Assembly (NCBI GenBank): GCA_964406145.1
Contig: CAYOQP010000003.1
Location: 29,663 to 78,447, forward strand
Source: an uncultured Candidatus Saccharibacteria bacterium
Lineage (GTDB): Bacteria; Patescibacteriota; UBA1384; XYA2-FULL-43-10; 1-14-0-10-43-13
Direction of reading: 5' to 3'
Length of the DNA: 48,785 nt
Part shown: in pieces, positions 18,284-47,469 of the stretch
Position numbering within the stretch: the first letter of the stretch is position 1
Layout of the letters: each line of letters begins with the position of its first letter
Translations under genes and position numbers: made by a program
The notes under the pieces: model-generated
What the model saw: only the letters and a program-made list of their open reading frames with translations
Told to the model about the DNA's origin: nothing
The model's database searches: none

Positions 18284-18304
18284 ATAATTAGGGCTAGGAG
18301 AAAA

Positions 18305-19357: not shown

Positions 19358-19360
19358 ACA

Positions 19361-19390
19361 TTGTATCAATATTGTTTGACATGCTATAAT
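19361..19390 (+). promoter_or_regulatory. Internal promoter candidate: TTGTAT-18 nt-TATAAT with extended -10 (TGCTATAAT)
   Basis: TTGTAT lies at 19361..19366 and TGCTATAAT at 19382..19390, in the only sizeable intergenic gap (58 nt) of the first half of the block. Confidence 0.4.
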
Positions 19391-19415
19391 AAAGCCAAGA
19401 CACATTGGAGGGGTT

Positions 19416-19832: not shown

Positions 19833-19833
19833 T

Positions 19834-20799: not shown

Positions 20800-20802
20800 A
20801 CT

Positions 20803-24768: not shown

Positions 24769-24792
24769 TAAATTTGCGGTATAATTAATCGA

Positions 24793-26055
24793 ATGAACAC
24801 AGAATTAAAGAAAATCAAAAGAACTGTTTACTTGGTTGGTCTCGTAGTCATTGCCTCTATCGGCATGCTACTGTGGTTCATGATGCACTCATTTGCAAAA
24901 ATAGTTATTGAACCGAGAAATGCGACTGTGACTGTGGACGACAAAAAAATAAGAGTCTCAGCCGGAAAGGCCAATATAAATACCTCGACAGGCGAACATG
25001 AAGTCAAAGTAGAGGCTGATGGCTATATCGGCTATAACCAAACTCTGAATTTTGACAGAGGATTTAATAAAACAATAAATATTACTCTTCAAGAGGTTCC
25101 TAAACCAATTGAAATAAGTTCCAGCGCTAGTTTACTAGCAAAAGGAAGTGATTTTAGTGATGGTTATTATTTGTCTAAAAGTGCAATTTATAAAACCAAG
25201 ATTGGTCTTGACGAGAATAGCAATATTTCTATCTTGGAAAATAGGGCCATAACAGAAGCAAAGATCACAGACTTAAAAGAAATAATATGGTCCCCAAGCA
25301 AAGAACTGGCCTTATTCAGAAAATCAAATTCTGTCACCTTATTTGATTTTATGAAGTACGACTTTATAAATCAGACCGAAACGCCTTGGGCCAATGGAGA
25401 CGTTGGAAATATCGCTTGGGCACCAGACAAATCAAAAATCGCCTACTATTACTTCCCCTCTACCGGAGAAAAATCTTTAATATTCGCCAATACAACAAAC
25501 ACCGAGATAGAAAGAGTTCTGAATTTTGTTGAATTAGGCATAGAGCATCCCTTGCTTCGTTGGTCGCCGAATTCCGAGTGGCTTTTGATTATTCCCCGCA
25601 ACTCAGATAAGGATAAAAACAAAATTTATTTGTTCAATGCTTACTCTCGAAGAATTAAGGAATTGACTGATGTCGGTGGACAGACAGACGCTAATTTTTC
25701 GCCAGACAGCAACAAGATTCTTTATTCGACATATTCTAAGGAAGATGGCAGCTCTATCTTAAATAAATTGTTTATCATGGATATTTCTGGCAACAACAAG
25801 AGAGACCTCGATTTAAGAGCAGACTTGAGCAAAACAGCCTGGAGTAAAGATGCAAGAAATATCGTTGTTGCATCTTCCAACTCAGACAATGGAGATCAAT
25901 CAATCTTCAAGTTCGACACAGAAAAAAAGGAGCGCTCTGGCTTTTCTATTAACAATTTGGGTAAAATTAGTATAGATACACTCGCCTTTTCTGATGATGG
26001 CAAATTGCTTTTTTACGAGGCAGGTAATCAGATTTTTGCCTTGAAGGTAAATTGA
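24793..26055 (+). CDS. Membrane-anchored PEGA-domain plus TolB-like beta-propeller protein
   Basis: N-terminal TM helix (VYLVGLVVIASIGMLLWFMM). PEGA-like segment IVIEPRNATVTVDDKKI..GEHEVKVEADGYIGYNQTLNF. Six spaced WSP/FSP blade motifs follow: WSPSKELALF, WAPDKSKIAYY, WSPNSEWLLI, FSPDSNKILYS, WSKDARNIVV and FSDDGKLLFY. Confidence 0.6.
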   Translation: MNTELKKIKRTVYLVGLVVIASIGMLLWFMMHSFAKIVIEPRNATVTVDDKKIRVSAGKANINTSTGEHEVKVEADGYIGYNQTLNFDRGFNKTINITLQEVPKPIEISSSASLLAKGSDFSDGYYLSKSAIYKTKIGLDENSNISILENRAITEAKITDLKEIIWSPSKELALFRKSNSVTLFDFMKYDFINQTETPWANGDVGNIAWAPDKSKIAYYYFPSTGEKSLIFANTTNTEIERVLNFVELGIEHPLLRWSPNSEWLLIIPRNSDKDKNKIYLFNAYSRRIKELTDVGGQTDANFSPDSNKILYSTYSKEDGSSILNKLFIMDISGNNKRDLDLRADLSKTAWSKDARNIVVASSNSDNGDQSIFKFDTEKKERSGFSINNLGKISIDTLAFSDDGKLLFYEAGNQIFALKVN

Positions 26056-26115
26056 TTATCTTTTTGAAGTTTTAAATAACAATTTTATTCAACTAGAGCT
26101 AATGACGGAGGGGTT

Positions 26116-28431
26116 TTGGCTCATAAAAAATATTCAATAATTCTTGAAGCAGGAAATCTGGCCAAAGCAGGCCAAAAAGAAGCGGCCGCAAGATTGCTAA
26201 GAGATAATCAGATCAGTTCTCCGGATGCTAATGCCGAGCTTATTCGCAACCAACTTTTTGACGAGGCAATGGCTCTTACGAATGCCGTTGAAGAGGCTAG
26301 CCTTGCCGAAATACACAATGAAACAGTCGGTGGCGATCAAGCTCCCGCAGACACAACTGTCAACAACAATAGCGACACTCCATCAACGGTCTCGGAAGAA
26401 AAAGTAACGAGTGATAGCGGATCAGGGGAAGGAGATGGGGAGATAGATCTCGCTCCAGTGACTACTGATGACATCGAAGAAGCAGAAGCGGGAAAAACAG
26501 ATACGAAAGACAAGCCAGTAATAGAAGAGAATGGAGAAACAATCAACTCTGGTGGATCCGACGCTGATCTAGAACCAGACGACAATAGCGCTGTTAGAGA
26601 GGAGGTAATATCCGAGACTCCAACAGACCCTTCTCAAACGAGACGACCAAATTTTAATGGTTTAGATGGAGTATTCAGACCATACTCTGGACCAAGCCGG
26701 GAAACAGACGAAGCAATCGGGGTCGAGCCCGACCAAGAAGAAAATGAGGACGACGACAAAAATCCCAAAATAAAGGTCTCTGGCCCAACTAGTGTATATC
26801 CTGATCAAAAAGCCTCGTATACAGCCTCTACTTCTCAATTTGAAGAGGAAGAGACTTATTTCTGGGCAATTGAGGGCAGAAGAATTGGTGGAGTTGGCTT
26901 TGAATATTCTGGCAAAGAAAGTGACGGTTCGGCAAAAGGATTAATAATCAAAACTGCCGAAAAATGCGGCGCCGGAACTATCACCGTAATGGCCAAGGGC
27001 GTAAAAAGTGGCGTTATATCGGGATTGAATGTTTTTATTAAAAAAAATAAAAACGACCTAAAGCCAAAAGTTGAAATTGATGGACCAAATTCGGTCAACG
27101 CTGGCTCGAGCATTACTCTAAGCGCTAAAACAACAAATTTTGACGAGGAAGAAACTTATATCTGGAGCCACGAAGGAAGTGTTGCTGGAGTCACACTTAA
27201 TCCATCTGGGGGTAATTATGTAATTACAGCCGCACCAGAATGTGGCAAGGGAGCCATAACTGTTTTAGCCAGAGGAGAAAAAAGCGGCGCCAGCTCCGGT
27301 GGATTCAATGTCATCGTCATCAATAAGAAGAAAGAGGACGAAAAAGAAGAAGAGAGCGAGGAAGAGAAGAAAAAAAGAGAAGACCAGGAGGCCAAGGAGA
27401 AGGCTGAGAAAGAGGCCAAGGAGAAGGCTGAGAAAGAGGCCAAGGAGAAGGCTGAGAAAGAGGCGGCTGAGAAAACTGCTGCAAAAAATGGCGGCAAGGG
27501 AGGCATAGGCAAAGCACTTGCGGCCCTCGCTGAAAATCCTTGGTTTTGGGTTGCAGTGATTGTCATCATCATAGCTTTAGCAATCTTCGCTTGGTTTATT
27601 AGCGTGGCGCAATCAGGCGCAAATGGCAAAACTCCGACTATCCAGGTGAATGCGGCCACAAACAAGGACTCGTTACAAAAATTAAATTTGCTTATGGGCG
27701 ACAAGGACTCACAACAGCAAATTTCACAACAAACTTTTCAAGAAGCTCAAAAAAATTTACTTGCCCTAAAAGAACAGGTAGCCGATCCAGCAATAAAAAC
27801 CAAGATCGATGAAGCTTTGGCCAAAATTGAACTTTATTTAACTAACTTTGATACAGAAACAGGCAAAGCCGCCATTGAACTTATAAGACAAGCTCTAGCC
27901 ATGTTAGACGCCATGGTGCCAGCAATCCAAGGTCGCTACCCGATCAATCCAGGTGATGTCATTGCCTACAATAACGAACTCCATCTTGCGACACCCATGA
28001 GACCAGAACCACTCAGCTACGACAAAGGACACGGAACTTACATATATCCTGGCGAGAACAGGTGCGATGCAGTTGATATATTTACTATTCCGGAAGCCGC
28101 AGTTTACTCTGCCATCACCGGAGACATTGTTGATGTTTCTGATGATGGAACAGGTCATAAAAAGGTGGTTATAAAACAGGGAGACTACGAGCTTCTTTAT
28201 GCTAATTTTGACCCTACTGTTGTAGTCGGAGACAAAATTACGAATTTAGAAACACCTATTGGCAAAACTGTTGATATAAATGGTGCCCACCAATTACATG
28301 TAGAGCTTTCTTACTGTGGAATCTGTCTGGTTACAACGCCACTAGACAGGATAATTAAAGAAGAAAGAAATCAATCTTCTTGGGGAGAATTACTTTGGAC
28401 ACATTATAAGGAGACATTAAGATTGCCGTGA
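26116..28431 (+). CDS. Bitopic protein: acidic disordered N-region, two duplicated Ig-like domains, EAKEKAEK repeat, TM helix, C-terminal degenerate LytM/M23-like domain
   Basis: TTG start after GGAGGGG. The duplicated ~90-aa segments are at nt 26767..27039 and 27064..27321. The TM helix is WFWVAVIVIIIALAIFAWFI (nt ~27538..27603). The M23-like segment is DAVDIFTIPEAAVYSAITGDIVDV..VVVGDKITNLETPIGKT..GAHQLHVEL (nt ~27928..28320). Confidence 0.6.
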   Translation: MAHKKYSIILEAGNLAKAGQKEAAARLLRDNQISSPDANAELIRNQLFDEAMALTNAVEEASLAEIHNETVGGDQAPADTTVNNNSDTPSTVSEEKVTSDSGSGEGDGEIDLAPVTTDDIEEAEAGKTDTKDKPVIEENGETINSGGSDADLEPDDNSAVREEVISETPTDPSQTRRPNFNGLDGVFRPYSGPSRETDEAIGVEPDQEENEDDDKNPKIKVSGPTSVYPDQKASYTASTSQFEEEETYFWAIEGRRIGGVGFEYSGKESDGSAKGLIIKTAEKCGAGTITVMAKGVKSGVISGLNVFIKKNKNDLKPKVEIDGPNSVNAGSSITLSAKTTNFDEEETYIWSHEGSVAGVTLNPSGGNYVITAAPECGKGAITVLARGEKSGASSGGFNVIVINKKKEDEKEEESEEEKKKREDQEAKEKAEKEAKEKAEKEAKEKAEKEAAEKTAAKNGGKGGIGKALAALAENPWFWVAVIVIIIALAIFAWFISVAQSGANGKTPTIQVNAATNKDSLQKLNLLMGDKDSQQQISQQTFQEAQKNLLALKEQVADPAIKTKIDEALAKIELYLTNFDTETGKAAIELIRQALAMLDAMVPAIQGRYPINPGDVIAYNNELHLATPMRPEPLSYDKGHGTYIYPGENRCDAVDIFTIPEAAVYSAITGDIVDVSDDGTGHKKVVIKQGDYELLYANFDPTVVVGDKITNLETPIGKTVDINGAHQLHVELSYCGICLVTTPLDRIIKEERNQSSWGELLWTHYKETLRLP
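27388..27474 (+). repeat. Perfect 24-nt tandem repeat x3 plus a partial fourth copy, in-frame (EAKEKAEK)n
   Basis: GAGGCCAAGGAGAAGGCTGAGAAA occurs at 27388..27411, 27412..27435 and 27436..27459. A diverged partial copy follows. Confidence 0.9.
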
Positions 28432-31400
28432 TACAAATCTGTAAAAATTTCATCATTTATCTAGTGGGGATATCGCTATCTTTGAATCCTCTTGTCGTGC
28501 TCGTTCCAGAAAAAGTCTCTGCGGCTACAACAACGCCGGCAGCAAATGTCGCAACACCGCTAATTGGAATAAGAGACCAGGAAAGCTTCGGCTATGCTCC
28601 CAAAGCCGCTGGGGCGCAATGTGATGCTATCAGAAAGACTCGACCAGAAGCATACAATTCTCTAGTATCAATGCTACAAAATTTTTCTGGTGTCGGTAGC
28701 AGTGCTTTGGCCTTTAATGACATATTGACCGCTCCAGGAGAAGCAAGAATCCTTTTGCCACTTAAGGATCGCAAGGCGGTTAAATCTTTACTTTGTCTAT
28801 CGCAAGTAATACCAAATTATGCCGAAGACACAAAAGCACTATACGACGCCCTCCCGGCATCAGAAAAATCAAATATTGATGGGGCTGTCTCTTTAGAAGC
28901 GAATAATCCATTCCCTATTTACAGGACTCGAGATGAATATTTTCTCTTTTTAAGATATGGCTATGAAGGCCAAGATCCCAATGAAAAGCTAGCCAATTTT
29001 GATTACGTTACTGGTCTTGTAAAAACCGCTGAGAAAAATTTCAGCGAAAAAGAATTAAAACGAATCTGGTCAGAACAAGCTGATCGAATTGCCAAAGGAT
29101 TAGACACCACCATTGAGGCCAACACTTTGTCTTGTGTTACCGGCCTAGACAGAAATGAACTAAGAGCAAGAATTGGAACAACCACAGGCGGCCAATATAT
29201 TGCCGAAAGAATAAACGATGCTGTAAATTCTTTAATTATAGATATTCGTGTCGTAAATACCCTTATTTACTTGGTTACGCCGAAAGATAAAGGTGGAGCT
29301 GGACACTGGCGGGTTTCTGTAGCAAGGATATTACAAGGCAGTGAAAAATCCAGAGAATCAGATGCCGCAATAGAAGAAAATGCTAGGATGGAAACCCCGA
29401 CACTAAGAAGCGCTTCTGAAGGTTCGGCGACTCAGATTGAGTGTGATGAGAATATGACCGCCGCAGAATGCGGAGCACAACAAAATCAAGGACAGGCCGT
29501 TGTTGAAGATAAAGACGGAACTCAATATGAAGCATTTTTTGAGAACATGGATAACGAGCTAGACGATGAAAGAAACGTTTCTGCTCACTTCACCGGCCAA
29601 GCTGTTGATATCAAACAAATTGATGATATTCGCTGTACTCTGGTCAAAAAAAGACGAATTGGCGGAAGCTCTAAGCAAAAACAACCGATTAGACCTATTA
29701 AACTCGTCTGGCAGACTACTGATGGTTGGAGTCAAGCTCGGGGTGAAAATGACTTTGACACCATGAGCATGATGAGAGATCTTGCCAAGCAAAGTATTAT
29801 AGACCTTCTAAGTTCAATGAACGAAGATATTACCGACTATGATGGCGATCTGTCTCGAGCCAGTTTTGATGACCTAATTGGGATACTTGGTCAATCGCTT
29901 CTCGCTCAAATTGTTGATTCCCCGTCTCACAATCTTAAGGGCTACAGCGTCACCAACACAATAGAACAACTTGGAGCAATGTATTTTGCAGACTATCTCG
30001 AGCTTCCACGCGAAATATTTAAAAACGAGGATCTAAAAGATTTAGAAAAAATTAAATACATTATCGGTCGGGCCGCAATAGAAAAACGACTTGGACTTCC
30101 CTTTGGCTCTCTGGATAGTCTTAATTTGATTGAAACAACACGAAACGGACTCGAGAAACCTATCTACAATTTAGAAGGATTGGTTTTGAATATCGGACAA
30201 CGCAAGATCGAATATGAGATGGGCTTTGAAGCTCATGATCTTGATCCATATTTTAAGATTAATACCGTTCAAGGAGAATACTTACTAGATTACAAGTCAA
30301 TCGGGCGTATCGTAATTGAGAATGAATTAAATTTACCCAAAGGCTCCTGGCCCAAAACTGCAATCAGTTTTGCCACACTTAAGGACTATATTTCAGAAGT
30401 TCGAGCAAATGTCCTAAAAGTTGACCCCGGATATATAGACTCTATCCTCCATATCGACCCAGGAACAACGCAATCATTCATCCTTGGGCGGATTACAAGC
30501 GAACAACTTGCCGAAAAAGTTGGAACGGTCCGATACAACAACACAACGGCAGGATTGAAGTATTTTGCTATGAATAATGTTGCCTATCAATTACCAGGCC
30601 CAACAGTAGAAGATCCCGATGTTCCCGACACATGGAAAGAAGCACTGAAAGGCAATCCCGAATATATTAAGGTTATCGGCATTTATACCTTGGCTCGTCT
30701 ACTTGGAGAGAATTCTCTAGATATTGATCTGAGTTACGTTGACGGTGGAACTCTTAAAAAATATGTTCCGGACGATGCTACATTGGGCAAAGTTGTTGTC
30801 TCAACAAAATTCAATGAGGAAAAAGAAATTGTTTATGATAGAAAAGAGTACGGGTTTTTCGTTTTTCGAGAATGGATAAGAAGAAATCTTGATGAAAGAC
30901 TAAAGGCGGCCGATGGTTGTTCCGAGGGAAGAACCACTGGTGGTATAAATGTTTCTGCAACCTATCAAGGCCAGACCGTCTACAATGGACCAGTTGATTT
31001 GAACAATCCAACACGAGAAGACATACAGAATACCATCGATAGTGTGTGCAAATTAAAACAAACAATAATTGTTAATGAAATAAATTATACCGACAAAGAC
31101 GGCAACGATCATCAGATAAAAAACGTTGTGGCTGATGCCTATATATCCGACGCCAAGGCAATCGAGATTGGTCTAGAAAAAATGGATCTTTATTCCATAA
31201 TGGGCTTTCGAGAAGCAGACGCTAGACCTGTTTTCAAAAGAATTGGCGCTAAACTACTCTACTATGGAATCGCCAACAAGGTCCTTAACGAAGAAGAGCG
31301 TTTGAAAATAAATTTAATGGATGTTAATCCAACCATTAATGTTGATGAAAACTCAAATGACGTAACAGCTTTCTATATACCTAGGATTTTAAAAGTTCAA

Positions 31401-34400
31401 GAATTAACAAGAAAACTCAAAACAGATTGGGAAGCAGTCAGAACGAATGATGCCGAAACTCAAGATATAACCGATAGAATCAGCAAGATCTTTGCTCGAC
31501 TTGAATCAATTTATTCTGAAAGCGACGTAAACCTTTTGAAGATACAACGTGTTGCTCAAGCAATTAAAGAAATCATGGTTGACATAAACGCAATCAAAGA
31601 AGAGCTTGAAATCCTTAGAGAGAGATATAACACTAGAACTGGAACAGAGGTCGTCAATAAAATTGCTCAAATTAATGCCTTAATTTATAACACTAACGAA
31701 CTCATTAGGATCGTTGCAGAGATTTTTTCTGGCAAACAAATTAATAGTTCTGATCTTTTGAACATTAAACAAATTAGTCTAGGCGCGGATTCTAGTGGAG
31801 TGAGTGACGCTGATGGCAGAAGGACAAGATCCGGTCTCTCGAGGTGGGAGATGATTATATTGTTGTTTTCTTTCTTAAGTGGAGAAATTAGTGTTCAAGA
31901 ATTCATCATTCGCCTTGGGGCTAATACCGCTGAGGCCAAGCTTGGTCTTCCGGCAAACTCTCTTATATATTTGGTTCAGAATTTTGACAAAATGGGCATT
32001 CACGGTGTTGACGCCTTTTATCAAGCAATCGGCCAGGCCAGAATTGAAGAAGAATTTGCGATGCCAATGTACTATTTTCAAGGCTATGATTACAATAAAA
32101 AATTACCAAAATTTGACAAACTAAATGATAAAGACGAATTTGCCGATCTGATTCAGTGGGCAGTGAACGAAAAGGGAGAAAGCGTAATAAAACCCGAGTA
32201 TGATCTCCACGTAGCGGAGCTTAGAGAGGCATGGATCACAGACGAAGTGACAATGACCAAGTTTATATTTGGCCAAAAATGGGTTAACTGGGAAAAGTTT
32301 GATAGCTGGGTTGAGCTGGCCAAAACACGCTGGCTTGAGAAAAATAAGGTCAAAGCAAGAGACATGGCTGTTTTTGAAAAAACTATCGACGACGTTGTCA
32401 CCAACATAGGTAACAAAGGATACGGTGACGGTTTCCGCTCGCCCGAAGATGATTTATTGTTCAGAATGGGTTTGCCAACGGGTAAATATTCAGCTTTAAA
32501 GGACGCCTCTCCGCTCGCTTGGCAGGTAGCAAACAGTCGAAGCCAGACCATCGATGCCGCCTTTGACGTCCCGGTAAATTCAACGAAAATGTTATTTACA
32601 GGAAGCGAAGAAATAACATCAAAAAGCTTAAGCAACAAAGAAAAAAATCTTCTTGAGGCATCTGACTTAAAAATATCCAAAAACGAAATAGAAAAATATA
32701 TTCAGATGCTAAACGGTGATTTATTACCAGGCGAAAACAATGAATACAATAATGGGCTAGACCCTGATTACGTCAGCAATAATCCCTATGCTGATCCGGC
32801 CATAACTGGACCTATTTGTCCTATTGATTTCACTTCTGAAGACGGTTTCATGGTTAATAATACAACGCTTCCGGCAAATTCATTCTGCTACTACGACAAG
32901 ACAGGCAGACATTGTTTCCAGAGCTGGGAAGAGGCACAACTATACGCCAACGAACATCCAGATGCAAAAATTACCGACATACTTGAAGATTTGGCCGTAA
33001 AAATAACAACCGCCTATAACCAATCGCTGATTGCAGCTGATGGCAGCTCAACTGGCACCAGAATAAGCTATATTGATGTTTTCTCTGGCCTGACAGACTT
33101 TGTTAATGACAAAAAGAAAGTCTCGGCATTTAACGATACTGCGCTAAACACAATAGCCAGAAATGATGGCGGAGAAGTGTCCGGACAAAACAACGCCTCA
33201 AGACTTGAGTTATCCAAGATTGCCTTTGAAAACATCTCCAAAAATAGCACCGTTCCTGTTGACATATTCATGAATATTTTCACAAGAGAGAGCATCGAAG
33301 CTCCTTTGTCGGCCTACAAAACAAAAGTTGGAACAACAGAAGCTCAAAAAATATTAACAACCAAAATATTCGATAGCTTAAACCTAGAGATCGATCCAGA
33401 AATGTTTGACGGCTCTGATCTTTACGATATTTTAACCGGTGATTATAGCTCGCTCTACAGACTTGGAACTTCATACATGGATCGTGCGCTCGACCTCAAA
33501 CAGGGCACGATAAATTTGATTTGGACGGCTAGAACTCCCGAAGCCAGGAAATGCGCCCTTGATAAAGCAGGAGGGGTACTTCTGGGCGAAGTTTTTGGCC
33601 TTGATTATCTTCCCTTGGACAGACTAACCACCGATATGGGCGATTTTATGACATCCTTGGGTCAGGAAAAAATAGAAGAAGCTCTCAGTCTGCCGAGAGG
33701 AACATTTCGAGTCGATGACCAAACAACAAAAAATAACCTAGATAACCTCATAAAAAATGTGGGAATTATCAATTTTGTTTCGGTTTTTAAATTGCCGATA
33801 AACCTTATTGACGAAGGCGACAGAGCAACTTTTGAAGACAGTGTCTATAACATCCTAGGACAGGACGGGTTTAATAGAGTTTCAAATACTTCTCCTCAAT
33901 ATCAGCTTCAGAAGGTTAAAGAGTTTTTAAGTTCGACTCTAGTCTTGACCAATAACGCCAATGTCGGCCGCCGAAGCCTAGAGGCTTTGCTGGCGGAACT
34001 CATGCAAGGACCGGGAGGCATTTTGGCCCTCATCGCTTCAACCGATCCAGCCGCAAGCCTAATTAAAACAAAACCCGAGAATATCAACAGTGAAACTTCT
34101 CTTGCTTATAGTTTATACAATCTTCAGGTTCAAAATTTTTATGCACAACTAAATTATATTGACGGACTTTTGGGTCTTAGCCATTACTCCACTTACTTAA
34201 TGCTTGGAGGGAAAACCGCGCCTGTGGCTTATATAAATAAAGTCGGTGACTCTCTTGGAATTAAAATTGCTGGATTAAAACTCGCCGAAATGCTCGGTCT
34301 CGATGCCATGGAATCAGAAGCGGCCCTAGCAATTGCCACAAATATTAGACAGATTTTCGTCTGCGAGGGCAATGGCAGAAGACTAGTAAACATAAACGGC

Positions 34401-37400
34401 AGACAAGTCTGCTTAACCGGGACTGGCATGAGCCCAGAGTCAGACGGTTGGTATCATAACTGGGGACTTATTTATGACAATCTTGATAAGATCTTTCACT
34501 TTAAGCTTGATGAAAAAGCCGGTCTACCAATAGGAACAATTCAGAAATTAATCGATGATCCAAAAGCTACTTTTCCGGTACTTCTTGAAATTGGAGCCCA
34601 AAAACTTGATGCTAAGATGTTCCCTGACGACCCAGAAAGGTCTAGCAAAACTGCCTCCTTTTCTGGTTTGTATCGAGCACTATTCCCAGAGACACTTGCA
34701 CCAATACAAGCTGAATGTCATGCAGAAGCATTCCCTGGCGGAGTAGATATGGAGCTTGACAATAAGATGGCTCTTGCCAATGAGCAACTCAAAACGATTG
34801 AGCGTGAATATGAAACATTGGGCCTTCCGGCTGGTGACAACAATTCTACTGATTGGCTTAACAGTTTAAGTGCTACCGATCGAGCAAAATACGATGCATG
34901 GAAAGCCAGAAAAGATGCCAAGTTGGCCGAGATAAGAACAATACAAAACGAATATAATACTAGAGCAAAAGCCGAGCAAGATTGTCTACGAACAAGACAG
35001 GAAACGAGTGCGGCTCTAGGCAGTCTTGGCGAAGTACCTAGAGATCAGTGGGATGTCTACGGTGCCAGAGCTTGGGAGTGGGCTCAAGCCGCAATAGCTG
35101 AAATAATTCACGACAAGCTTTTAAATATTTATGTTTCTCTTCCTGGTTGTGATAGCACTGTTCATTCGCCAATGGGCGATTATCAAAATCCTGAAGCATG
35201 TAAGGTCAATGTCGGCATCGATATGCCTACAAGCGATATTCGCAAAATGATGGGCGGCGATCTGCGCTATCTTATGGCGGTCACTCTCGCTATGGGAGCT
35301 AACCTTGCATATATTTTGATCGATAATATTTCATCGACCAATTGCAATCCGGACGAACGAGATTCTGAGGGCTGTAGAGCTCCAGTCCCAGCCGAAATGA
35401 GAATAAGCTACGCCGACATCATGCTGGCCCTCTTTGGCCTACCTCAGAACGAACTTAATGCTTTGGCAGCCTGGAGAGAAGTAACCAATCAATCAGGTAA
35501 TGTCTATGAGGAAGATCCGGATAATCATTCTTGGAACGGAGAAAGCTGTCAGCCAGGGGAAGTTTTTGATGGGATTATGTGTGTTGCCTCTGCTGGCACC
35601 AATACTGACTCGGCTGGTGGAGTTCGCCAAGAAACAGCCAACAATTATGGTTATAGTCCTGAAAATGTTGAAGCAGAAAAAGCCAGAATAGAGGCTTCTA
35701 TCGCTGAAAATCATCAAGCGGCTATCGATGCTTGTAATGAATTAGGCTATGAAGATCCCGAGGCGTATGATAATTGCGTCAATAATATTGATGGTTATTT
35801 GAACGAGAGCAATCTTCAGAACCTTGACATGTTAAATCATCCGGAAAAATATAATTTTGATCCTAATAATAATGCGGCAGCAAAGGAAATCAACGACAGC
35901 GCTAAGGAGATAGCCAGAACAAGACTTCAATACAAGCTTATGGATACTGCTCTTTGGAAATTGGACGAGAATATTTTTCCTGGATTTTCTCGGGCGATAA
36001 TGAAGGGCAATACTGGTGAAAAGTGGGCGGCCTTAGCTCGATATGTTAAGAATGGTCTTATTAATGGACACCTATTTGGTATCAGGTTTGATAGTATAGA
36101 TCCAGAGATTATCGATGCCGGTTTGGCTGTGGCTGCCTATCTGACTGCCCGAACACAGGAACAAAGAGATATAGCTATTGAGAATTTCACCAACCAAAAA
36201 TTCAATACTTTAGTTCAATTTATTTCAAATAATTCAGAGAAATGGCTTGGGATTAGACTTGATCTTGATATTACCGAGGGACTTCTCACAAGTATATTTA
36301 CTGGAAACTGGGGGGCAAATTCATTCTCTTTAGACGGAATAATGGGTGATACTGGCGCCAGAGAAACATTTGCTGGCCAAGAAAGGTGGACACTTGGCGG
36401 CGCAGTCGTAAATTGGGGACTTGGTAGGATCTTTAGCTGGGCAGATAAAGCTCTTGGCTTAGAAGCCGGACAGTCTTTACAAATATTTAATCTTGCTAAA
36501 AATGCTTACAAGGCTTACAAGGCTTATCAAGCAGCAAGCGCAACTTTGGAGGCAGCGAATAAATTAGCGGCAGCCACAAAACAACTAGTAGAACTAACAA
36601 AAGGAACTATTTTTGAAGGAACGGCGATTGCATTAAATGACACCGCCCAAGCCGCCCAAAAGGCAGCCGAAGCACAAAAAGCCGCTAAACTAGCTGGTTA
36701 TGGAGCCGCTGTCGGCGCTGTAATTCAATTCGCTATTGGCTTATTGGTGGACAAATTACTCGGGAAACAGATTGGGCAATGGGAAGAGGCGCTCGGATTG
36801 GTACCCGGTACACTTGCTCCTGTCATATCGGCTGGTATTTATACCCTGGCCCTGCCAGCTATGAATGCAGCTATTTACGCCGCAGCACCTTCGCTTGGGT
36901 CAAGCTTCTTGCCTGCACTCGGACCATGGGGCTGGGCGGCGATTATTGGCATATTTATTATTATGAATTTGTTTGGAGTTTATAGAGTTGAATATTGGTG
37001 TACCGCTGATGGTTATTTCCCCAAACTTGGTCAGCCAAATTATTTAGAAAACGACATTTCTCCTTATGGTGTTTGGGGTGGCAGAGTCAATGGCAGTCTT
37101 AATGACATAATTAAAAACATGTCGATTAAGGTAGCACAATACAAAGCCCAGCGACTAATTGGCGACATGCTAGAGATGCAATATAATTCAGATTTTAACG
37201 ATTATAATGGCATGCCAACCGTACCAACACAAATAATGACCGGCCGAGAAGAGGATGTTGAGTATTGGAAAAATGTCGTTGAGACAAACGTTTGTCAACA
37301 AAGACTAGGAGACAGGGCTCATCTTATATTCGATGGTAAGAACGCTGTCTGCGATGCCGGCATGAGAAGAATGGGACTCTGGTTCAACCCACAAACAACA

Positions 37401-37424
37401 GCTTGGACACATATTGGCTTCTAA
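28428..37424 (+). CDS. Giant (2998 aa) surface protein: N-terminal signal/anchor, ~2700-aa mostly helical ectodomain, three C-terminal TM helices and a Cys-containing tail
   Basis: An uninterrupted 8997-nt ORF. Its GTG start overlaps the upstream TGA (GTGA at 28428..28431). The N-terminus is FIIYLVGISLSLNPLVVLVPEKVSAATT. The C-terminal helices are AAVGAVIQFAIGLLV, LAPVISAGIYTLALPAMNAAIYAAAP and WGWAAIIGIFIIMNLFGVY (nt ~36696..36985). No family is recognisable by eye apart from a short LAS-peptidase-like motif. Confidence 0.8.
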   Translation: MIQICKNFIIYLVGISLSLNPLVVLVPEKVSAATTTPAANVATPLIGIRDQESFGYAPKAAGAQCDAIRKTRPEAYNSLVSMLQNFSGVGSSALAFNDILTAPGEARILLPLKDRKAVKSLLCLSQVIPNYAEDTKALYDALPASEKSNIDGAVSLEANNPFPIYRTRDEYFLFLRYGYEGQDPNEKLANFDYVTGLVKTAEKNFSEKELKRIWSEQADRIAKGLDTTIEANTLSCVTGLDRNELRARIGTTTGGQYIAERINDAVNSLIIDIRVVNTLIYLVTPKDKGGAGHWRVSVARILQGSEKSRESDAAIEENARMETPTLRSASEGSATQIECDENMTAAECGAQQNQGQAVVEDKDGTQYEAFFENMDNELDDERNVSAHFTGQAVDIKQIDDIRCTLVKKRRIGGSSKQKQPIRPIKLVWQTTDGWSQARGENDFDTMSMMRDLAKQSIIDLLSSMNEDITDYDGDLSRASFDDLIGILGQSLLAQIVDSPSHNLKGYSVTNTIEQLGAMYFADYLELPREIFKNEDLKDLEKIKYIIGRAAIEKRLGLPFGSLDSLNLIETTRNGLEKPIYNLEGLVLNIGQRKIEYEMGFEAHDLDPYFKINTVQGEYLLDYKSIGRIVIENELNLPKGSWPKTAISFATLKDYISEVRANVLKVDPGYIDSILHIDPGTTQSFILGRITSEQLAEKVGTVRYNNTTAGLKYFAMNNVAYQLPGPTVEDPDVPDTWKEALKGNPEYIKVIGIYTLARLLGENSLDIDLSYVDGGTLKKYVPDDATLGKVVVSTKFNEEKEIVYDRKEYGFFVFREWIRRNLDERLKAADGCSEGRTTGGINVSATYQGQTVYNGPVDLNNPTREDIQNTIDSVCKLKQTIIVNEINYTDKDGNDHQIKNVVADAYISDAKAIEIGLEKMDLYSIMGFREADARPVFKRIGAKLLYYGIANKVLNEEERLKINLMDVNPTINVDENSNDVTAFYIPRILKVQELTRKLKTDWEAVRTNDAETQDITDRISKIFARLESIYSESDVNLLKIQRVAQAIKEIMVDINAIKEELEILRERYNTRTGTEVVNKIAQINALIYNTNELIRIVAEIFSGKQINSSDLLNIKQISLGADSSGVSDADGRRTRSGLSRWEMIILLFSFLSGEISVQEFIIRLGANTAEAKLGLPANSLIYLVQNFDKMGIHGVDAFYQAIGQARIEEEFAMPMYYFQGYDYNKKLPKFDKLNDKDEFADLIQWAVNEKGESVIKPEYDLHVAELREAWITDEVTMTKFIFGQKWVNWEKFDSWVELAKTRWLEKNKVKARDMAVFEKTIDDVVTNIGNKGYGDGFRSPEDDLLFRMGLPTGKYSALKDASPLAWQVANSRSQTIDAAFDVPVNSTKMLFTGSEEITSKSLSNKEKNLLEASDLKISKNEIEKYIQMLNGDLLPGENNEYNNGLDPDYVSNNPYADPAITGPICPIDFTSEDGFMVNNTTLPANSFCYYDKTGRHCFQSWEEAQLYANEHPDAKITDILEDLAVKITTAYNQSLIAADGSSTGTRISYIDVFSGLTDFVNDKKKVSAFNDTALNTIARNDGGEVSGQNNASRLELSKIAFENISKNSTVPVDIFMNIFTRESIEAPLSAYKTKVGTTEAQKILTTKIFDSLNLEIDPEMFDGSDLYDILTGDYSSLYRLGTSYMDRALDLKQGTINLIWTARTPEARKCALDKAGGVLLGEVFGLDYLPLDRLTTDMGDFMTSLGQEKIEEALSLPRGTFRVDDQTTKNNLDNLIKNVGIINFVSVFKLPINLIDEGDRATFEDSVYNILGQDGFNRVSNTSPQYQLQKVKEFLSSTLVLTNNANVGRRSLEALLAELMQGPGGILALIASTDPAASLIKTKPENINSETSLAYSLYNLQVQNFYAQLNYIDGLLGLSHYSTYLMLGGKTAPVAYINKVGDSLGIKIAGLKLAEMLGLDAMESEAALAIATNIRQIFVCEGNGRRLVNINGRQVCLTGTGMSPESDGWYHNWGLIYDNLDKIFHFKLDEKAGLPIGTIQKLIDDPKATFPVLLEIGAQKLDAKMFPDDPERSSKTASFSGLYRALFPETLAPIQAECHAEAFPGGVDMELDNKMALANEQLKTIEREYETLGLPAGDNNSTDWLNSLSATDRAKYDAWKARKDAKLAEIRTIQNEYNTRAKAEQDCLRTRQETSAALGSLGEVPRDQWDVYGARAWEWAQAAIAEIIHDKLLNIYVSLPGCDSTVHSPMGDYQNPEACKVNVGIDMPTSDIRKMMGGDLRYLMAVTLAMGANLAYILIDNISSTNCNPDERDSEGCRAPVPAEMRISYADIMLALFGLPQNELNALAAWREVTNQSGNVYEEDPDNHSWNGESCQPGEVFDGIMCVASAGTNTDSAGGVRQETANNYGYSPENVEAEKARIEASIAENHQAAIDACNELGYEDPEAYDNCVNNIDGYLNESNLQNLDMLNHPEKYNFDPNNNAAAKEINDSAKEIARTRLQYKLMDTALWKLDENIFPGFSRAIMKGNTGEKWAALARYVKNGLINGHLFGIRFDSIDPEIIDAGLAVAAYLTARTQEQRDIAIENFTNQKFNTLVQFISNNSEKWLGIRLDLDITEGLLTSIFTGNWGANSFSLDGIMGDTGARETFAGQERWTLGGAVVNWGLGRIFSWADKALGLEAGQSLQIFNLAKNAYKAYKAYQAASATLEAANKLAAATKQLVELTKGTIFEGTAIALNDTAQAAQKAAEAQKAAKLAGYGAAVGAVIQFAIGLLVDKLLGKQIGQWEEALGLVPGTLAPVISAGIYTLALPAMNAAIYAAAPSLGSSFLPALGPWGWAAIIGIFIIMNLFGVYRVEYWCTADGYFPKLGQPNYLENDISPYGVWGGRVNGSLNDIIKNMSIKVAQYKAQRLIGDMLEMQYNSDFNDYNGMPTVPTQIMTGREEDVEYWKNVVETNVCQQRLGDRAHLIFDGKNAVCDAGMRRMGLWFNPQTTAWTHIGF

Positions 37425-37454: not shown

Positions 37455-37727
37455 CTACCACTTAATAGAGATCTTAACGAGACGAACCGAATTGCGGCCT
37501 AGTTTTTCGTTGATAAAAGAAATTAAATCCTCCTTTTGTATTTCAAGTTCCGAGGCCGCAGGAGAAGAATCGACAGAAACCCGCAGAATGCCCTTTGTGA
37601 AAGAAATGGCTTGACATGGGGTCTTTCCCCATTGGGAAACATAAAAACAAATCTGGGCGGCCTGGAGGGTCCCAGAGAGCTTCTTTTTTGTTAAACGCGA
37701 ATGTAATATTTGATCAATTTTTTCCAT
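37455..37727 (-). CDS. DUF721-family protein (DciA-like putative helicase-loading factor)
   Basis: A 90-aa protein directly after recF with a 14-nt overlap. GILRVSVDSSPAASELEIQKEDLISFINEKLG fits the DUF721 pattern (a strand followed by AxEL and a helix). Confidence 0.55.
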   Translation of the reverse strand: MEKIDQILHSRLTKKKLSGTLQAAQICFYVSQWGKTPCQAISFTKGILRVSVDSSPAASELEIQKEDLISFINEKLGRNSVRLVKISIKW

Positions 37728-38763
37728 TTATTTTTTCTAATTCTATAATAAAGGCGCTGTTTAAAAGTTCACTCGCAAAATGTTCTTTGTCCGTCGTTGT
37801 AATAACAGATTGGTATTCAGCAATTAATTCACAAAGATGCTCTCTTCTTTTTTGGTCAAACTCCGAAAAAACGTCATCAAGAAGTAAGATCGGCTCCATC
37901 TCGGAGTCAATCGAGAGATATCTAAGCTCACAAATCTTCAAAGCCAGAATTGCGCTTCTTATTTCTCCCCTCGAGGCGAAGTTTGCCATATTAATAAAGT
38001 TCAAATTAAAAATAAGGTCATCTCTGTGTGGACCAATTAATGTCCGACCTGCTGCAATTTCACGGCGATGGTTCGCCTTTAGAGCATCCTTAAAAGAGTC
38101 GCCCGCATTGTTAATATAAACAACAGAAAGCTGATCCCCTCTCCCGGATATTTGACCATATATCTTTGAAATTTCCCTATTTATATAATCCAGTGTTTCT
38201 TTTCTTTTTTTGATTATAGATTCGCCATGTGCGATTAATTCGCTATTCCAAAAATCTAATTCCCCTTCTTTGGCGACATTTTGAGATATTCTTGTGAGTA
38301 AAGAATTTCTCTCTTTGCGAACTTTTTCATAATCAATAAGAGATTGAAGATATACTCTGTCCTTCTGACTAATCATAATATCTAAAAATTTTCGACGAGA
38401 AGAGGGAGATCCAGTTATAATCGATATTGTCTCTGGGGAGAAAACAACGCTTCTTAGGCGCCCAATGAATTCGGCTTGTTTTTTCAACACTCCCCTGTCT
38501 TTGGCTCTAAAAATGAAGTTGGGATTTTTCTGTATAAAGACTTCGAGGTCATCTCCCGTAATTTTGGTGTAGTCACATTCGAAATGAACAAGATTCTTTT
38601 TGTCGTCGTTTCGGAAAGAACGACAAAAAGACAGGAGTGAAATAGCTTCTAAAATATTGCTCTTACCTATGCCATTGGCACCAATGAGAATAGTGGTTCT
38701 TTTGAGGTCTATCTCTAAGCTCTTGTGGTTGCGAAAATTCTGTAATTTTATTTTCTTAAGCAT
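37714..38763 (-). CDS. recF: DNA replication and repair protein RecF
   Basis: LQNFRNHKSLEIDL, Walker A GANGIGKSNILEAI, the signature SRGE and Walker B LLLDDVFSEFD. Its position after dnaN also fits. Confidence 0.9.
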   Translation of the reverse strand: MLKKIKLQNFRNHKSLEIDLKRTTILIGANGIGKSNILEAISLLSFCRSFRNDDKKNLVHFECDYTKITGDDLEVFIQKNPNFIFRAKDRGVLKKQAEFIGRLRSVVFSPETISIITGSPSSRRKFLDIMISQKDRVYLQSLIDYEKVRKERNSLLTRISQNVAKEGELDFWNSELIAHGESIIKKRKETLDYINREISKIYGQISGRGDQLSVVYINNAGDSFKDALKANHRREIAAGRTLIGPHRDDLIFNLNFINMANFASRGEIRSAILALKICELRYLSIDSEMEPILLLDDVFSEFDQKRREHLCELIAEYQSVITTTDKEHFASELLNSAFIIELEKINGKN

Positions 38764-38785
38764 TAGAGATTAAAATTTATTTAAT

Positions 38786-47447: not shown

Positions 47448-47469
47448 AATCCTCCTGTTATATTTTTTA

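What the first reader, a model, noticed from the sequence alone, without database searches (positions are those of the whole stretch)
28428..37424. 2998-aa membrane-anchored giant protein as terminal gene of the T4SS-like block
A single uninterrupted 9-kb ORF (18% of the window) is translationally coupled (GTGA) to the preceding gene. It has a signal/anchor-like N-terminus and ~2700 aa with no composition bias extreme enough to be a simple repeat protein. An Ala/Lys-rich helical stretch (AYKAYKAYQAASATLEAANKLAAATKQL..AQKAAEAQKAAKLAG) follows, then three TM helices (nt ~36696..36985) and a 146-aa Cys-containing tail.

I recognise no adhesin repeats (no Ig, cadherin, RTX or YadA patterns). Its size and position as the last gene of the secretion-like operon suggest a machine-associated surface structure or a contact/adhesion factor rather than a soluble effector.
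Basis: partly seen in the sequence, partly recalled or inferred. Interest (0 to 1): 0.8.

Follow-up and report, generated by a model that had tools for sequence, protein, structure and literature searches.

The report
Giant orphan protein ending a T4SS operon
This real 2,998-residue exported, membrane-anchored, mostly helical protein belongs to an undescribed family of large proteins encoded next to the type IV secretion genes of ultra-small (Patescibacteria) bacteria, and may be that machine's missing outer part.

Summary
ORF 28428..37424 (+) is intact. Its GTG start overlaps the upstream stop (GTGA). It has a Sec-type signal peptide, a ~2,700-aa ectodomain, three C-terminal hydrophobic helices and a 144-aa Cys-containing tail.

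It is not an assembly artefact. The same protein occurs in NCBI, JGI and Logan records, and 56 colinear homologues of 1.8-3.1 kaa (nearly all 2.4-3.1) exist, all from Patescibacteria (Berkelbacteria-like MAGs).

The T4SS link is real. In 30 of 32 related loci with enough upstream sequence, VirB4 lies upstream on the same strand. The gene usually ends the operon, convergent with DciA-recF-dnaN-dnaA near the origin.

A profile of its most conserved N-terminal domain finds 193 cluster representatives, mostly 1.3-3.3 kaa. They share one plan: signal peptide, N-domain, C-terminal helices, and a tail with an invariant His four residues from an aromatic C-terminus.

Pfam, NCBIfam, PHROGs, PDB sequences and Foldseek on two AlphaFold segments gave no significant match. 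The only functional hint is an invariant SxHxxGxAxD motif, the LAS/M15 zinc-peptidase signature, with sub-threshold hits only.

Best reading, untested: an extracytoplasmic scaffold or host-contact subunit of the epibiont T4SS, evolving much faster than VirB4. No paper I could search describes it.

The parts
28428..37424 (+). Giant ORF, 2998 aa. The GTG start overlaps the stop of the upstream gene (GTGA at 28428-28431).
   Evidence: An identical protein is present in NCBI, JGI and Logan records.
28410..28413 (+). GGAG Shine-Dalgarno-like element, 14 nt before the GTG start
   Evidence: read directly from the sequence
28428..28523 (+). Predicted Sec signal peptide (aa 1-32; K6, hydrophobic core aa 8-26, VSA|AT)
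   Evidence: Hydropathy. M1 and A32 are at least 90% conserved. 140 of 160 large superfamily members have an N-terminal hydrophobic segment.
28524..29207 (+). N-terminal helical region (aa 33-260). This is the best-predicted part of the N-terminal model, with pLDDT 80-92 for aa ~110-250.
29220..29726 (+). Conserved N-domain (aa 265-433). Block A is IDIRVxKTLVYLVTPKxQGGAGHWR. A variable low-complexity loop follows. Block B is NISAHxxGQAVDIxxIDDIRCT...RPIKLxWQTxxG. This domain is the hallmark of the superfamily.
   Evidence: Invariant residues D272, R274, Y281, H293, E310, H387, D394, D399, C403, W428 and Q429. A profile of this domain finds 193 cluster representatives. The AF2 model is low-confidence here.
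29580..29609 (+). SxHxxGxAxD motif (aa 385-394), the zinc-binding H-x6-D signature of LAS/M15 (Peptidase_MD) peptidases
   Evidence: Invariant or near-invariant in the family. hhalign places it on the same motif of a genuine M15_4 protein, but not significantly. Sub-threshold Pfam hits to Extensin-like_C, Peptidase_M15_4 and HH_signal; the four hits whose coordinates were listed fall on this stretch.
30036..30536 (+). Cluster of four copies of the ~45-aa motif IGxxxIExxLGLPxG[ST] (aa 537-703)
30732..31142 (+). Variable region with the only sizeable beta modules (aa 769-905). Occupancy in the family is low.
31902..34607 (+). Central helical ectodomain holding further motif copies (aa 1159-1206, 1370-1406, 1666-1718, 1736-1783, 2009-2060). 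Conserved blocks alternate with variable ones.
36471..36758 (+). Two very long predicted helices (aa 2682-2723 and 2730-2777). They include the Ala/Lys-rich stretch and run into the first hydrophobic segment.
36693..36989 (+). Three hydrophobic helices (aa 2756-2778, 2791-2817, 2827-2854). The loop between the first two carries a tenth copy of the LGLxPG[ST] motif.
   Evidence: The number of such helices varies from 1 to 5 across the superfamily by a crude estimate.
36990..37421 (+). Conserved C-terminal tail domain (aa 2855-2998), predicted alpha/beta with pLDDT ~80 for aa 2889-2998. Invariant C2858, D2861, Q2935, T2938, R2940, D2943 and H2995. It ends ...THIGF-COOH.
12458..28431 (+). Upstream T4SS operon. 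In order: 646-aa exported protein; 997-aa polytopic protein placed like the VirB6-type (TrbL_3) protein of related loci, its own homology not tested; 305-aa protein; 350-aa TPR protein; PrgI/VirB3-like; TrsD/TraC-like; VirB4; SLT+Amidase_3 hydrolase; PEGA+beta-propeller protein; 771-aa protein with an M23-like C-terminus. Gaps between genes are at most 60 nt, or the genes overlap.
   Evidence: The same order is seen in related loci.
37455..41651 (-). Convergent DciA-like, recF, dnaN and dnaA genes. DnaA-box-like sites cluster at 39918-40145 and one lies at 41697, so the replication origin is about 2.5-4.3 kb past the giant's stop codon.
   Evidence: Conserved in 26 of 32 related loci.

Best explanation
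The protein is a lineage-specific extracytoplasmic subunit of the chromosomal, origin-proximal type IV secretion system of a Patescibacteria (Berkelbacteria-like) bacterium.

Proposed mechanism:
- It is translated last, coupled to the upstream wall-hydrolase-like gene, and exported by Sec through a cleavable signal peptide.
- It stays tethered to the cell's own membrane by C-terminal hydrophobic helices and a conserved tail, next to the VirB3/VirB4/VirB6-like translocon.
- Its ~2,700-residue, mostly alpha-helical ectodomain, built from conserved blocks and a recurring ~45-aa helical motif, acts as a scaffold or stalk. It reaches through the cell's own wall toward the host cell.
- This places the most conserved part, the N-terminal domain with a zinc-peptidase-like signature, furthest from the anchor. 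There it could bind or cut peptidoglycan, alongside the separately encoded hydrolases and the VirB2-like pilins.

Shown: the gene, its conservation, its synteny and its fast evolution. Predicted from sequence: export, anchoring and helical architecture. Inferred and untested: scaffold or contact function and any peptidase activity.
For: The gene is real and conserved. There are 56 colinear homologues of 1.8-3.1 kaa, nearly all 2.4-3.1, and the same protein occurs in three sources.

Operon membership. The start overlaps the upstream stop. VirB4 lies upstream on the same strand in 30 of 32 loci with at least 7 kb of upstream sequence. The order PrgI - TrsD/TraC-like - VirB4 - hydrolase - PEGA/propeller - (peptidase-like) - giant recurs in independent MAGs.

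Wider family. 193 cluster representatives share the N-domain, and the architecture is shared. Four of six distant members examined sit directly in VirB4 loci. A fifth lies next to PrgI, PEGA and lysozyme genes.

Predicted location. There is a signal peptide and there are C-terminal hydrophobic helices. The neighbouring genes encode extracytoplasmic wall-remodelling proteins.

Architecture. The two modelled segments are 50% and 64% helix, with many helices of 25-48 residues.

Evolutionary rate. Median identity to the window's copy is 28% for the giant, against 75.5% for VirB4 and 67% for DnaA in the same loci. This fits a surface- or host-facing protein.

Literature. The Patescibacteria T4SS is essential for epibiotic growth and lacks relaxase and coupling functions. 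No adhesin was detected in it, and its extracellular part is unknown (PMC10633639; PMC12102498; PMC12857230).
Against: - There is no homology or structural similarity to any characterised T4SS subunit, adhesin or scaffold.
- Physical association with the machine rests only on gene neighbourhood.
- One distant member (P0152) has no recognisable T4SS gene within 10 kb.
- The number of C-terminal helices is uncertain (2 or 3 in most members). It is therefore unknown whether the conserved tail is cytoplasmic or external.
- Positive charges lie before, not after, the first hydrophobic helix.
- AF2 confidence is only moderate (pLDDT 66 and 73, pTM about 0.5), and aa 1233-1798 were not modelled.
- Fast divergence could also reflect weak constraint rather than host-facing adaptation.
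Confidence: 0.5

Rival explanations
1. It is primarily an enzyme: a giant LAS-type (Hedgehog/DD-peptidase fold, M15-like) zinc peptidase. In this view it cuts peptidoglycan peptide stems of the host, or of the cell's own wall, to open a path for the T4SS. It would be a functional analogue of VirB1-type hydrolases, and the rest of the protein would be a tether.
For: The family has an invariant S385-x-H387-x-x-G390-x-A392-x-D394 motif. By my estimate an exact match would arise by chance about 5e-4 times in a protein of this size.

hhalign places the motif on the same motif of a genuine Peptidase_M15_4 protein from a related T4SS locus.

Six of 29 N-domain sequences give sub-threshold Pfam hits to Extensin-like_C, Peptidase_M15_4 or HH_signal. 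The four hits whose coordinates were listed lie on this stretch. Peptidase_M15_4 and HH_signal belong to the Peptidase_MD clan. Membership of Extensin-like_C is from my memory.

In Southlakia epibionticum, the essential 1113-aa SEML1_0007, encoded directly after VirB4, carries a Hedgehog/DD-peptidase domain.
Against: - All matches are short (19-43 residues) and non-significant: E 0.04-0.2, hhalign probability 1.7%.
- No second His ligand follows the motif.
- H387 is not conserved in the 'HVRW' subfamily.
- Ten N-domains from the wider superfamily gave no such hit.
- The AF2 model is below pLDDT 50 here, and Foldseek found no LAS structure.
- The locus already encodes dedicated hydrolases: SLT+Amidase_3 and an M23-like protein.
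Confidence: 0.15
2. It is a delivered component rather than a resident one. In this view it resembles a phage tape-measure protein or an internal virion protein. The long helical protein would be extruded toward the host, and its C-terminal hydrophobic helices would insert into the host membrane to form or extend the conduit. Its length would set the distance bridged.
For: The protein is all-alpha, with hydrophobic helices near the C-terminus and lytic enzymes encoded alongside.

The top BFVD Foldseek matches of the C-terminal model are an internal virion protein, tape-measure proteins and minor tail proteins.

Superfamily length varies from 1.3 to 3.3 kaa on one conserved plan.
Against: - The Foldseek matches are not significant (E at least 5e-3, TM about 0.08, rmsd about 40 A). 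They probably reflect generic long helices.
- A Sec signal peptide argues for ordinary export rather than passage through the T4SS.
- No coupling protein is encoded in the locus.
- The tail directly after the last helix is the most conserved part, which fits a fixed docking role.
Confidence: 0.13
3. It is a general cell-surface or envelope protein, for example a wall- or S-layer-associated fibre or a cell-envelope organiser. In this view its position beside the T4SS genes reflects shared origin-proximal, high-dosage expression rather than a role in secretion.
For: Large membrane proteins are common on CPR surfaces; Vampirococcus has ten of 1.4-4.2 kaa (PMC8080830).

The whole neighbourhood is vertically inherited core chromosome next to dnaA.

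One superfamily member lies away from any recognisable T4SS gene, next to sortase, LytR and glycosyltransferase genes.
Against: - Same-strand, tightly packed operon structure with a start/stop overlap.
- The link to VirB4 persists where the link to dnaA is lost (L050, L053).
- The link to VirB4 also persists across subfamilies sharing under 25% identity.
Confidence: 0.12
4. It is a contact-dependent polymorphic toxin or a T4SS effector.
For: Its size is similar to CdiA and Rhs-type toxins, it lies in a secretion locus, and its sequence diverges quickly.
Against: - The C-terminus is the most conserved region, not a variable toxin module.
- There is no immunity-like gene downstream; the next gene is a convergent DciA-like gene.
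- No FHA, Rhs, PT-TG or toxin domains were found.
- It is membrane-anchored and present as a single syntenic copy.
Confidence: 0.03

Closest known systems
Patescibacteria (CPR) chromosomal T4SS, MPF_FATA-related, as described in Saccharibacteria (Wang et al. 2023, PMC10633639) and across the phylum (Quinonero-Coronel et al. 2025, PMC12102498)
   Same: The machine and setting are the same. The locus has PrgI/VirB3, TrsD/TraC-like, VirB4, a polytopic protein placed like VirB6, and cell-wall hydrolases. A PEGA protein sits in the locus. VirB2-like pilins and a PilB-like ATPase lie nearby. There is no relaxase or coupling protein in the locus. The locus lies next to dnaA/dnaN/recF.
   Different: Neither those papers nor the 2025 T4SS review describes a 1.3-3.3-kaa terminal protein. 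The 2025 survey states that no adhesins were detected. In S. epibionticum the post-VirB4 genes are a 1113-aa protein with a C-terminal DD-peptidase-fold domain, a lysozyme/CHAP protein and a PEGA protein. Whether SEML1_0007 is a member of this superfamily could not be tested here.
Extended VirB6 proteins (Rickettsiales, MPF_FA systems)
   Same: These are very large membrane-embedded T4SS subunits with big hydrophilic domains of unknown role.
   Different: Extended VirB6 proteins have at least 5 N-proximal TM helices and a VirB6/TrbL core. The giant has a signal peptide and only about 3 C-terminal helices, and it has no TrbL match. A separate polytopic 997-aa protein in the same operon sits where related loci encode a TrbL_3 protein.
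Surface adhesins of Gram-positive conjugation systems (PrgB/Asc10, antigen I/II family)
   Same: They are large exported proteins encoded with a monoderm T4SS, and they make contact with the partner cell.
   Different: The giant has no LPXTG sorting signal and no Ig-like or polymer-adhesin domains. It is predicted to be alpha-helical rather than beta-rich, and it is anchored by TM helices.
LAS / Peptidase_MD (M15, VanY, Hedgehog N-terminal domain) zinc peptidases
   Same: The giant carries an exact, family-invariant SxHxxGxAxD (H-x6-D) zinc-site signature, and it sits in a peptidoglycan-hydrolase gene neighbourhood.
   Different: There is no significant profile or fold match. The downstream His ligand is absent. 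The motif sits in a domain split by a long variable loop. His387 is not universal in the superfamily.
Phage tape-measure and internal virion proteins
   Same: They are long all-alpha proteins with hydrophobic segments and associated wall-lytic functions, and they were the top (non-significant) Foldseek hits in the viral library.
   Different: There is no significant similarity. The giant has a Sec signal peptide and is a chromosomal core gene with no phage context.
Giant genes of Omnitrophota (West-Roberts et al. 2023 preprint)
   Same: They are very large proteins of ultra-small, host-dependent bacteria, with TM regions and proposed roles in attachment and wall degradation.
   Different: Those proteins exceed 10,000-85,000 aa, have many TM regions and SecA-like domains, and are not T4SS-linked. 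No sequence relationship to them was seen.

Membership tests
Component of the Patescibacteria T4SS locus | Encoded in the same operon as VirB4, PrgI and the VirB6-position protein | tested here: met
   Same strand, 4-nt overlap with the upstream gene, and gaps of at most 60 nt through the block. VirB4 is upstream in 30 of 32 informative loci.
Component of the Patescibacteria T4SS locus | Homology to a named T4SS subunit (VirB1-11, PrgA-L, Tcp, Con, Trs) | tested here: not met
   No Pfam, NCBIfam, PHROGs or PDB match.
Component of the Patescibacteria T4SS locus | Physical presence in the machine, or requirement for its function | not testable with these tools
   This needs genetics, pull-downs or cryo-ET.
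Extended VirB6 / TrbL | At least 5 hydrophobic helices forming a VirB6/TrbL core | tested here: not met
   The giant has only a signal peptide plus about 3 C-terminal helices and no TrbL Pfam hit. The 997-aa gene at 14398-17391 has six N-proximal hydrophobic segments. It occupies the position of the TrbL_3 protein of related loci.
LPXTG-anchored conjugation adhesins (PrgB type) | C-terminal LPXTG sorting signal | tested here: not met
   No LPx[TSA]G motif anywhere in the protein.
LPXTG-anchored conjugation adhesins (PrgB type) | Adhesin or Ig-like beta-rich domains | tested here: not met
   No Pfam hit. The models are 50-64% helix and 4-6% strand.
LAS / Peptidase_MD (M15-like) metallopeptidase | H-x6-D zinc-binding motif within SxHxxGxAxD | tested here: met
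   aa 385-394. H387, G390 and D394 are invariant; S385 and A392 are at least 90% conserved.
LAS / Peptidase_MD (M15-like) metallopeptidase | Second His ligand (ExxH / WHxxY type) downstream in the same domain | tested here: not met
   No conserved His between aa 395 and 560. The only other invariant His residues are H293, upstream, and H2995, at the C-terminus.
LAS / Peptidase_MD (M15-like) metallopeptidase | Significant profile or fold match to the Hedgehog/DD-peptidase fold | tested here: inconclusive
   Only sub-threshold, motif-length matches. There was no PDB profile hit. The AF2 model is below pLDDT 50 in this region, so Foldseek is uninformative here.
Polymorphic toxins (CdiA, Rhs and similar) | Variable C-terminal toxin module followed by an immunity gene | tested here: not met
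   The C-terminal tail is among the most conserved regions. The downstream gene is a convergent DciA-like gene.
Phage tape-measure / internal virion proteins | Significant sequence or structural similarity | tested here: not met
   No PHROGs hit. The best BFVD match has E 5.5e-3, TM 0.08 and rmsd 48 A.
Omnitrophota-type giant genes | More than 10,000 aa, many TM regions, SecA DEAD-like domain | tested here: not met
   2998 aa, few TM helices and no SecA domain. Features of that class are taken from the preprint.

The most novel reading that the evidence does not exclude
The superfamily may be the missing extracellular conduit or stalk of the Patescibacteria T4SS. It has one conserved plan: signal peptide, N-terminal wall-binding or wall-cutting domain, helical rod of variable length, membrane helices, and a tail ending in His-x-x-aromatic. 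In this reading it is a Sec-exported 'molecular ruler', and its length (1.3-3.3 kaa in different lineages) sets the distance bridged between the epibiont membrane and the host envelope. It would then be the key determinant of how these ultra-small bacteria plug into their hosts.
Probability: 0.15. Interest if true: 0.85.

Novelty: new variant of a known kind. Interest (0 to 1): 0.62.

Why it matters
The T4SS of Patescibacteria is the first T4SS reported as essential for growth of the bacterium that carries it. It is thought to mediate exchange with the host cell. What crosses the epibiont's wall and touches the host is unknown, and a phylum-wide survey found no adhesin.

A Pfam-less family of exported, membrane-anchored proteins of 1.3-3.3 kaa stays glued to the VirB4 block across very divergent lineages. 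It evolves much faster than the ATPase. That makes it an obvious candidate for the missing part. It gives concrete targets, namely two conserved orphan domains and a zinc-site-like motif, for genetics in cultivable Saccharibacteria, for cryo-ET and for biochemistry. It also offers a family definition that would replace 'hypothetical protein' for one of the largest genes of these very small genomes.

Tried and rejected
Searches that found nothing significant:
- Whole-protein and family-profile searches of Pfam, NCBIfam, PHROGs and PDB sequences.
- Foldseek of both 1200-aa AF2 models against PDB gave only helical-bundle noise. A weak hit to 'CgsiGP' turned out to be cyclic glucan synthase and is irrelevant.
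- Foldseek against BFVD gave tape-measure and internal-virion proteins at non-significant scores. I do not count this as evidence.

Ideas considered and dropped:
- Split LAS site. The idea was that the SxHxxGxAxD motif of the N-domain and the invariant C-terminal His (THIGF, reminiscent of the M15 'WHxxY' ending) form one zinc site. I dropped it for three reasons. The C-terminal His stays conserved in the subfamily that has lost H387. Topology is unresolved. The tail shows no relation to an M15_4 protein.
- Tail as a complete DD-peptidase domain, by analogy with SEML1_0007. Neither sequence profiles nor weak Pfam hits support it.

Steps that failed or were limited:
- A third word-indexed homology search, using the tail alignment, returned only fragments.
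- The first AF2 submission was too large. Alignments were cut to 28 rows, which probably limited model quality.
- A crude hydropathy and positive-inside analysis could not fix the number of C-terminal TM helices.

Other negative checks:
- The cryptic motif HMM found no significant copy in other window proteins; the only hit had E 0.59.
- There is no terminator-like site after the gene.


Full report
**1. The observation**

The window holds a single ORF at 28428..37424 (+) of 2998 codons with a GTG start. The sequence around the start reads ...AAGGAGACATTAAGATTGCCGTGATAC.... The GTG at 28428 therefore overlaps the TGA stop (28429-31) of the preceding ORF 26116..28431, and a GGAG lies 14 nt upstream.

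At the ORF's base composition, a stop-free run of this length has a probability of about 1e-86.

The hydropathy profile shows four things:
- an N-terminal signal-like segment (K6, core aa 8-26, then VSA|AT);
- no strong hydrophobic stretch in the next ~2,700 residues that looks like more than a buried helix;
- three C-terminal hydrophobic segments (aa 2756-2778, 2791-2817, 2827-2854, which is nt 36693-36989);
- a 144-aa tail with three cysteines.

Composition is ordinary and TRF finds no DNA repeat. One qualification applies: the protein contains at least 10 copies of a degenerate ~45-aa motif, IGxxxIExxLGLPxG[ST].

**2. It is a real, conserved gene**

The identical protein is on record from NCBI, JGI/IMG and Logan assemblies. 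The records differ only in the called start.

A search of 5.8 billion clustered proteins found 56 homologues of 1.8-3.1 kaa. Nearly all are 2.4-3.1 kaa, and the shortest (1762 aa) is annotated as partial. Every one is unnamed or 'hypothetical', without Pfam domains, and those with a name come from Patescibacteria or Berkelbacteria MAGs.

BLAST shows them colinear over the full length, with conserved blocks separated by variable ones. The 54-sequence alignment has 60 invariant columns. The start Met, the KK of the n-region and Ala32 at the predicted cleavage site are conserved, which supports the long start.

**3. Genomic setting**

The window is core chromosome of a Patescibacteria-type genome. 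It carries TsaD, FemAB, a Mur ligase, BacA, XerC/D-like integrase, DnaA, DnaN, RecF, RnpA, YidC and a PilB-like ATPase. It also carries PF18895 'T4SS pilin' genes.

The giant is the eleventh and last gene of a tightly packed + strand block, 12458-37424:
- a 646-aa exported protein;
- a 997-aa polytopic protein, in the position of the TrbL_3/VirB6 protein of related loci;
- a 305-aa protein;
- a 350-aa TPR protein;
- PrgI/VirB3;
- a TrsD/TraC-like protein;
- VirB4;
- an SLT+Amidase_3 hydrolase;
- a PEGA+beta-propeller protein;
- a 771-aa protein with an M23-like end;
- the giant.

The next genes are convergent: DciA-like, recF, dnaN and dnaA. DnaA-box-like sites cluster at 39.9-40.15 kb and one lies at 41.7 kb.

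**4. Is the T4SS association coincidental?**

No. Five homologues at 25-36% identity, looked up on their contigs, have the same order: PrgI - TraC-like - VirB4 - hydrolase - PEGA/propeller - one or two more genes - giant. In the four whose downstream genes are on record, DciA-recF-dnaN-dnaA follows.

A scan of one genome per GTDB species returned 43 loci.
- of 32 with at least 7 kb of upstream sequence, 30 have VirB4 upstream on the same strand;
- of 32 with at least 3 kb downstream, 26 have recF/dnaN/dnaA.

The hydrolase genes in between vary by lineage: SLT+amidase, M15_4, CHAP, M23, NlpC/P60 or C39-like. The giant stays.

Median identity to the window's proteins across these loci is:

| Protein | Median identity |
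|---|---|
| VirB4 | 75.5% |
| DnaA | 67% |
| DnaN | 55% |
| RecF | 51.5% |
| PEGA/propeller protein | 41% |
| Giant | 28% |

The giant is by far the fastest-evolving gene of the neighbourhood.

**5. A wider family**

The most conserved part of the ectodomain is aa ~265-560. I ran a 29-sequence profile of aa 236-470 against 1.84 billion cluster representatives with full HMMER. It found 193 proteins at E<=1e-3 and 152 at E<=1e-10. Apart from evident fragments, they are 1.3-3.3 kaa.

They share one plan:
- an N-terminal hydrophobic segment;
- the N-domain within the first ~550 residues;
- one to a few hydrophobic helices about 150-250 residues before the end;
- a conserved ~145-aa tail with an invariant His four residues from an aromatic C-terminus.

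The tail ending defines subfamilies: ...THIGF, ...IHVRW, and ...VHVSFGGLF, the last with a short extension.

I looked up six distant members:
- Four lie directly behind VirB4 and a hydrolase (L050, L052, L053, L054).
- One is in a rearranged locus with PrgI, PEGA and lysozyme/amidase genes next to dnaN/dnaA (L051).
- One has no recognisable T4SS gene within 10 kb (L055).

None of nine shorter or fragmentary members scanned has a Pfam domain.

**6. What the protein looks like**

AlphaFold2 with 28-row family alignments gave these results:

| Segment | pLDDT | pTM | Helix | Strand |
|---|---|---|---|---|
| aa 33-1232 | 66 | 0.54 | 50% | 6% |
| aa 1799-2998 | 73 | 0.46 | 64% | 4% |

Many helices are 25-48 residues long. 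The only sizeable beta modules fall in the variable region aa 769-905. The Ala/Lys-rich stretch belongs to two long helices that run into the first hydrophobic segment. The tail (aa 2889-2998) is a small alpha/beta unit at pLDDT ~80.

The conserved N-domain core (aa 304-478) is below pLDDT 50, partly because a variable low-complexity loop splits it.

Foldseek against PDB found nothing at E<=1e-3 for either model. Against BFVD the top hits are an internal virion protein and tape-measure proteins, but at E at least 5e-3 and TM ~0.08. I read that as generic long-helix resemblance.

**7. The one functional hint**

Block B of the N-domain reads N-I-S-A-H-x-x-G-Q-A-V-D-I. This is the SxHxxGxAxD (H-x6-D) zinc-site signature of LAS/M15 peptidases, as I know them from VanX/VanY-type enzymes. 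Within the giant family it is invariant.

Three results bear on it:
- hhalign aligns it with the same motif (NSSSHAFGLAIDI) of a genuine Peptidase_M15_4 protein encoded in a related T4SS locus. Only 19 columns align, at 1.7% probability.
- Scanning the 29 N-domains singly at a permissive threshold, the most recurrent Pfam families are Extensin-like_C (3 members) and Peptidase_M15_4 (2). HH_signal appears once. All have E 0.04-0.2. The four hits whose coordinates were listed map to the motif stretch.
- Peptidase_M15_4 and HH_signal belong to clan Peptidase_MD (CL0170, Hedgehog/DD-peptidase fold). That Extensin-like_C also belongs there is from my memory.

Against a working enzyme:
- no downstream His ligand;
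- His387 is lost in the HVRW subfamily;
- no such hits in ten wider-superfamily N-domains;
- no PDB profile hit.

The hint gains some weight from Southlakia epibionticum. There the essential gene directly after virB4 (SEML1_0007, 1113 aa) carries a Hedgehog/DD-peptidase-fold domain, though at its C-terminus. I could not obtain that sequence to test homology.

**8. Mechanism**

The evidence best fits a resident, extracytoplasmic T4SS subunit. It would be exported by Sec and tethered by its C-terminal helices and tail beside the translocon. A long helical ectodomain would carry the conserved, peptidoglycan-directed N-domain at its far end. It would work with the operon's hydrolases, the PEGA/propeller protein and the pilins encoded across the origin.

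This matches what the literature says is missing. The Patescibacteria T4SS is essential for epibiotic growth and lacks relaxase and coupling protein. It may build a pilus, and no adhesin has been detected.

I put this at about 0.5. Rivals are a mainly enzymatic role (0.15), a delivered tape-measure-like conduit (0.13), a general envelope protein co-located for dosage (0.12) and a toxin or effector (0.03).

The steps from 'encoded with' to 'part of', and from 'helical ectodomain' to 'scaffold or contact', are inferences. The side of the membrane on which the tail lies is unresolved.

**9. Novelty**

The T4SS itself and its origin-proximal position are published (PMC12102498, PMC10633639). Giant surface proteins in CPR and Omnitrophota are also known in general terms.

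I found no description of this family in the searchable literature, and no library holds a model for it. I therefore rate it a new variant of a known kind: a known secretion system with an unrecognised, conserved, very large component built from two orphan domains.

**10. Verdict**

Interest is 0.62. It is not a new category of system, but it is a concrete and testable candidate for an open question in CPR biology.

Noticed in passing
window 12458-37424 (+) versus 37455-41651 (-), with DnaA-box-like sites at 39918-40145 and 41697: The whole 25-kb T4SS operon is transcribed toward the presumed replication origin, that is, head-on to the fork that would leave it. dnaA, dnaN and recF point away from the origin. 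The convergent arrangement is conserved in most related loci. GC and AT skews of the block follow the coding strand, not the expected leading strand.
   Followed up: partly
window 26116-28431 (+); L006, L050, L052, L053: The gene just before the giant is often a peptidase-type protein, but of a different family in different lineages: M23-like in the window, then C39_2, NlpC/P60, NlpC/P60 and C39_2 in the four loci named. It has no Pfam hit in other loci (for example L001, L002, L004). This suggests repeated replacement of a wall-cutting partner.
   Followed up: partly
window 43875-45521 (+) and 47133-48629 (-): A PilB/T2SSE-type ATPase and three small proteins lie on the other side of the origin. 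At least one of the small proteins carries the PF18895 'T4SS pilin' domain. The same arrangement recurs in L001, L004 and L054.
   Followed up: partly
L006 2222-2578 and 5934-6317; the contig of P0046 (5141-5509); L002 27436-27479: Small genes of the '23S rRNA intervening sequence protein' family (PF05635) are inserted between T4SS genes in some related loci.
   Followed up: no
L052 455-3085: [quoted passage not shown]
   Followed up: no
window 14000-17000: G+C rises to 0.46-0.48 over the 997-aa polytopic (VirB6-position) gene, against 0.38-0.40 for most of the window.
   Followed up: no
window 3813-4469 (+): A 218-aa protein has only an N-terminal Phd/YefM antitoxin domain (aa 8-57). The remaining ~160 residues are unassigned, and no toxin gene was identified next to it.
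   Followed up: no
window 29328-29570 (aa ~301-381 of the giant): The loop that splits the conserved N-domain is low-complexity (S/T/N/A-rich) and highly variable in length and sequence. In many members it keeps a Cys...TAAECG element (C339, C348).
   Followed up: no
window 43661-43750 (-): tRNA-Ser(CGA) is the only tRNA gene in the window.
   Followed up: no
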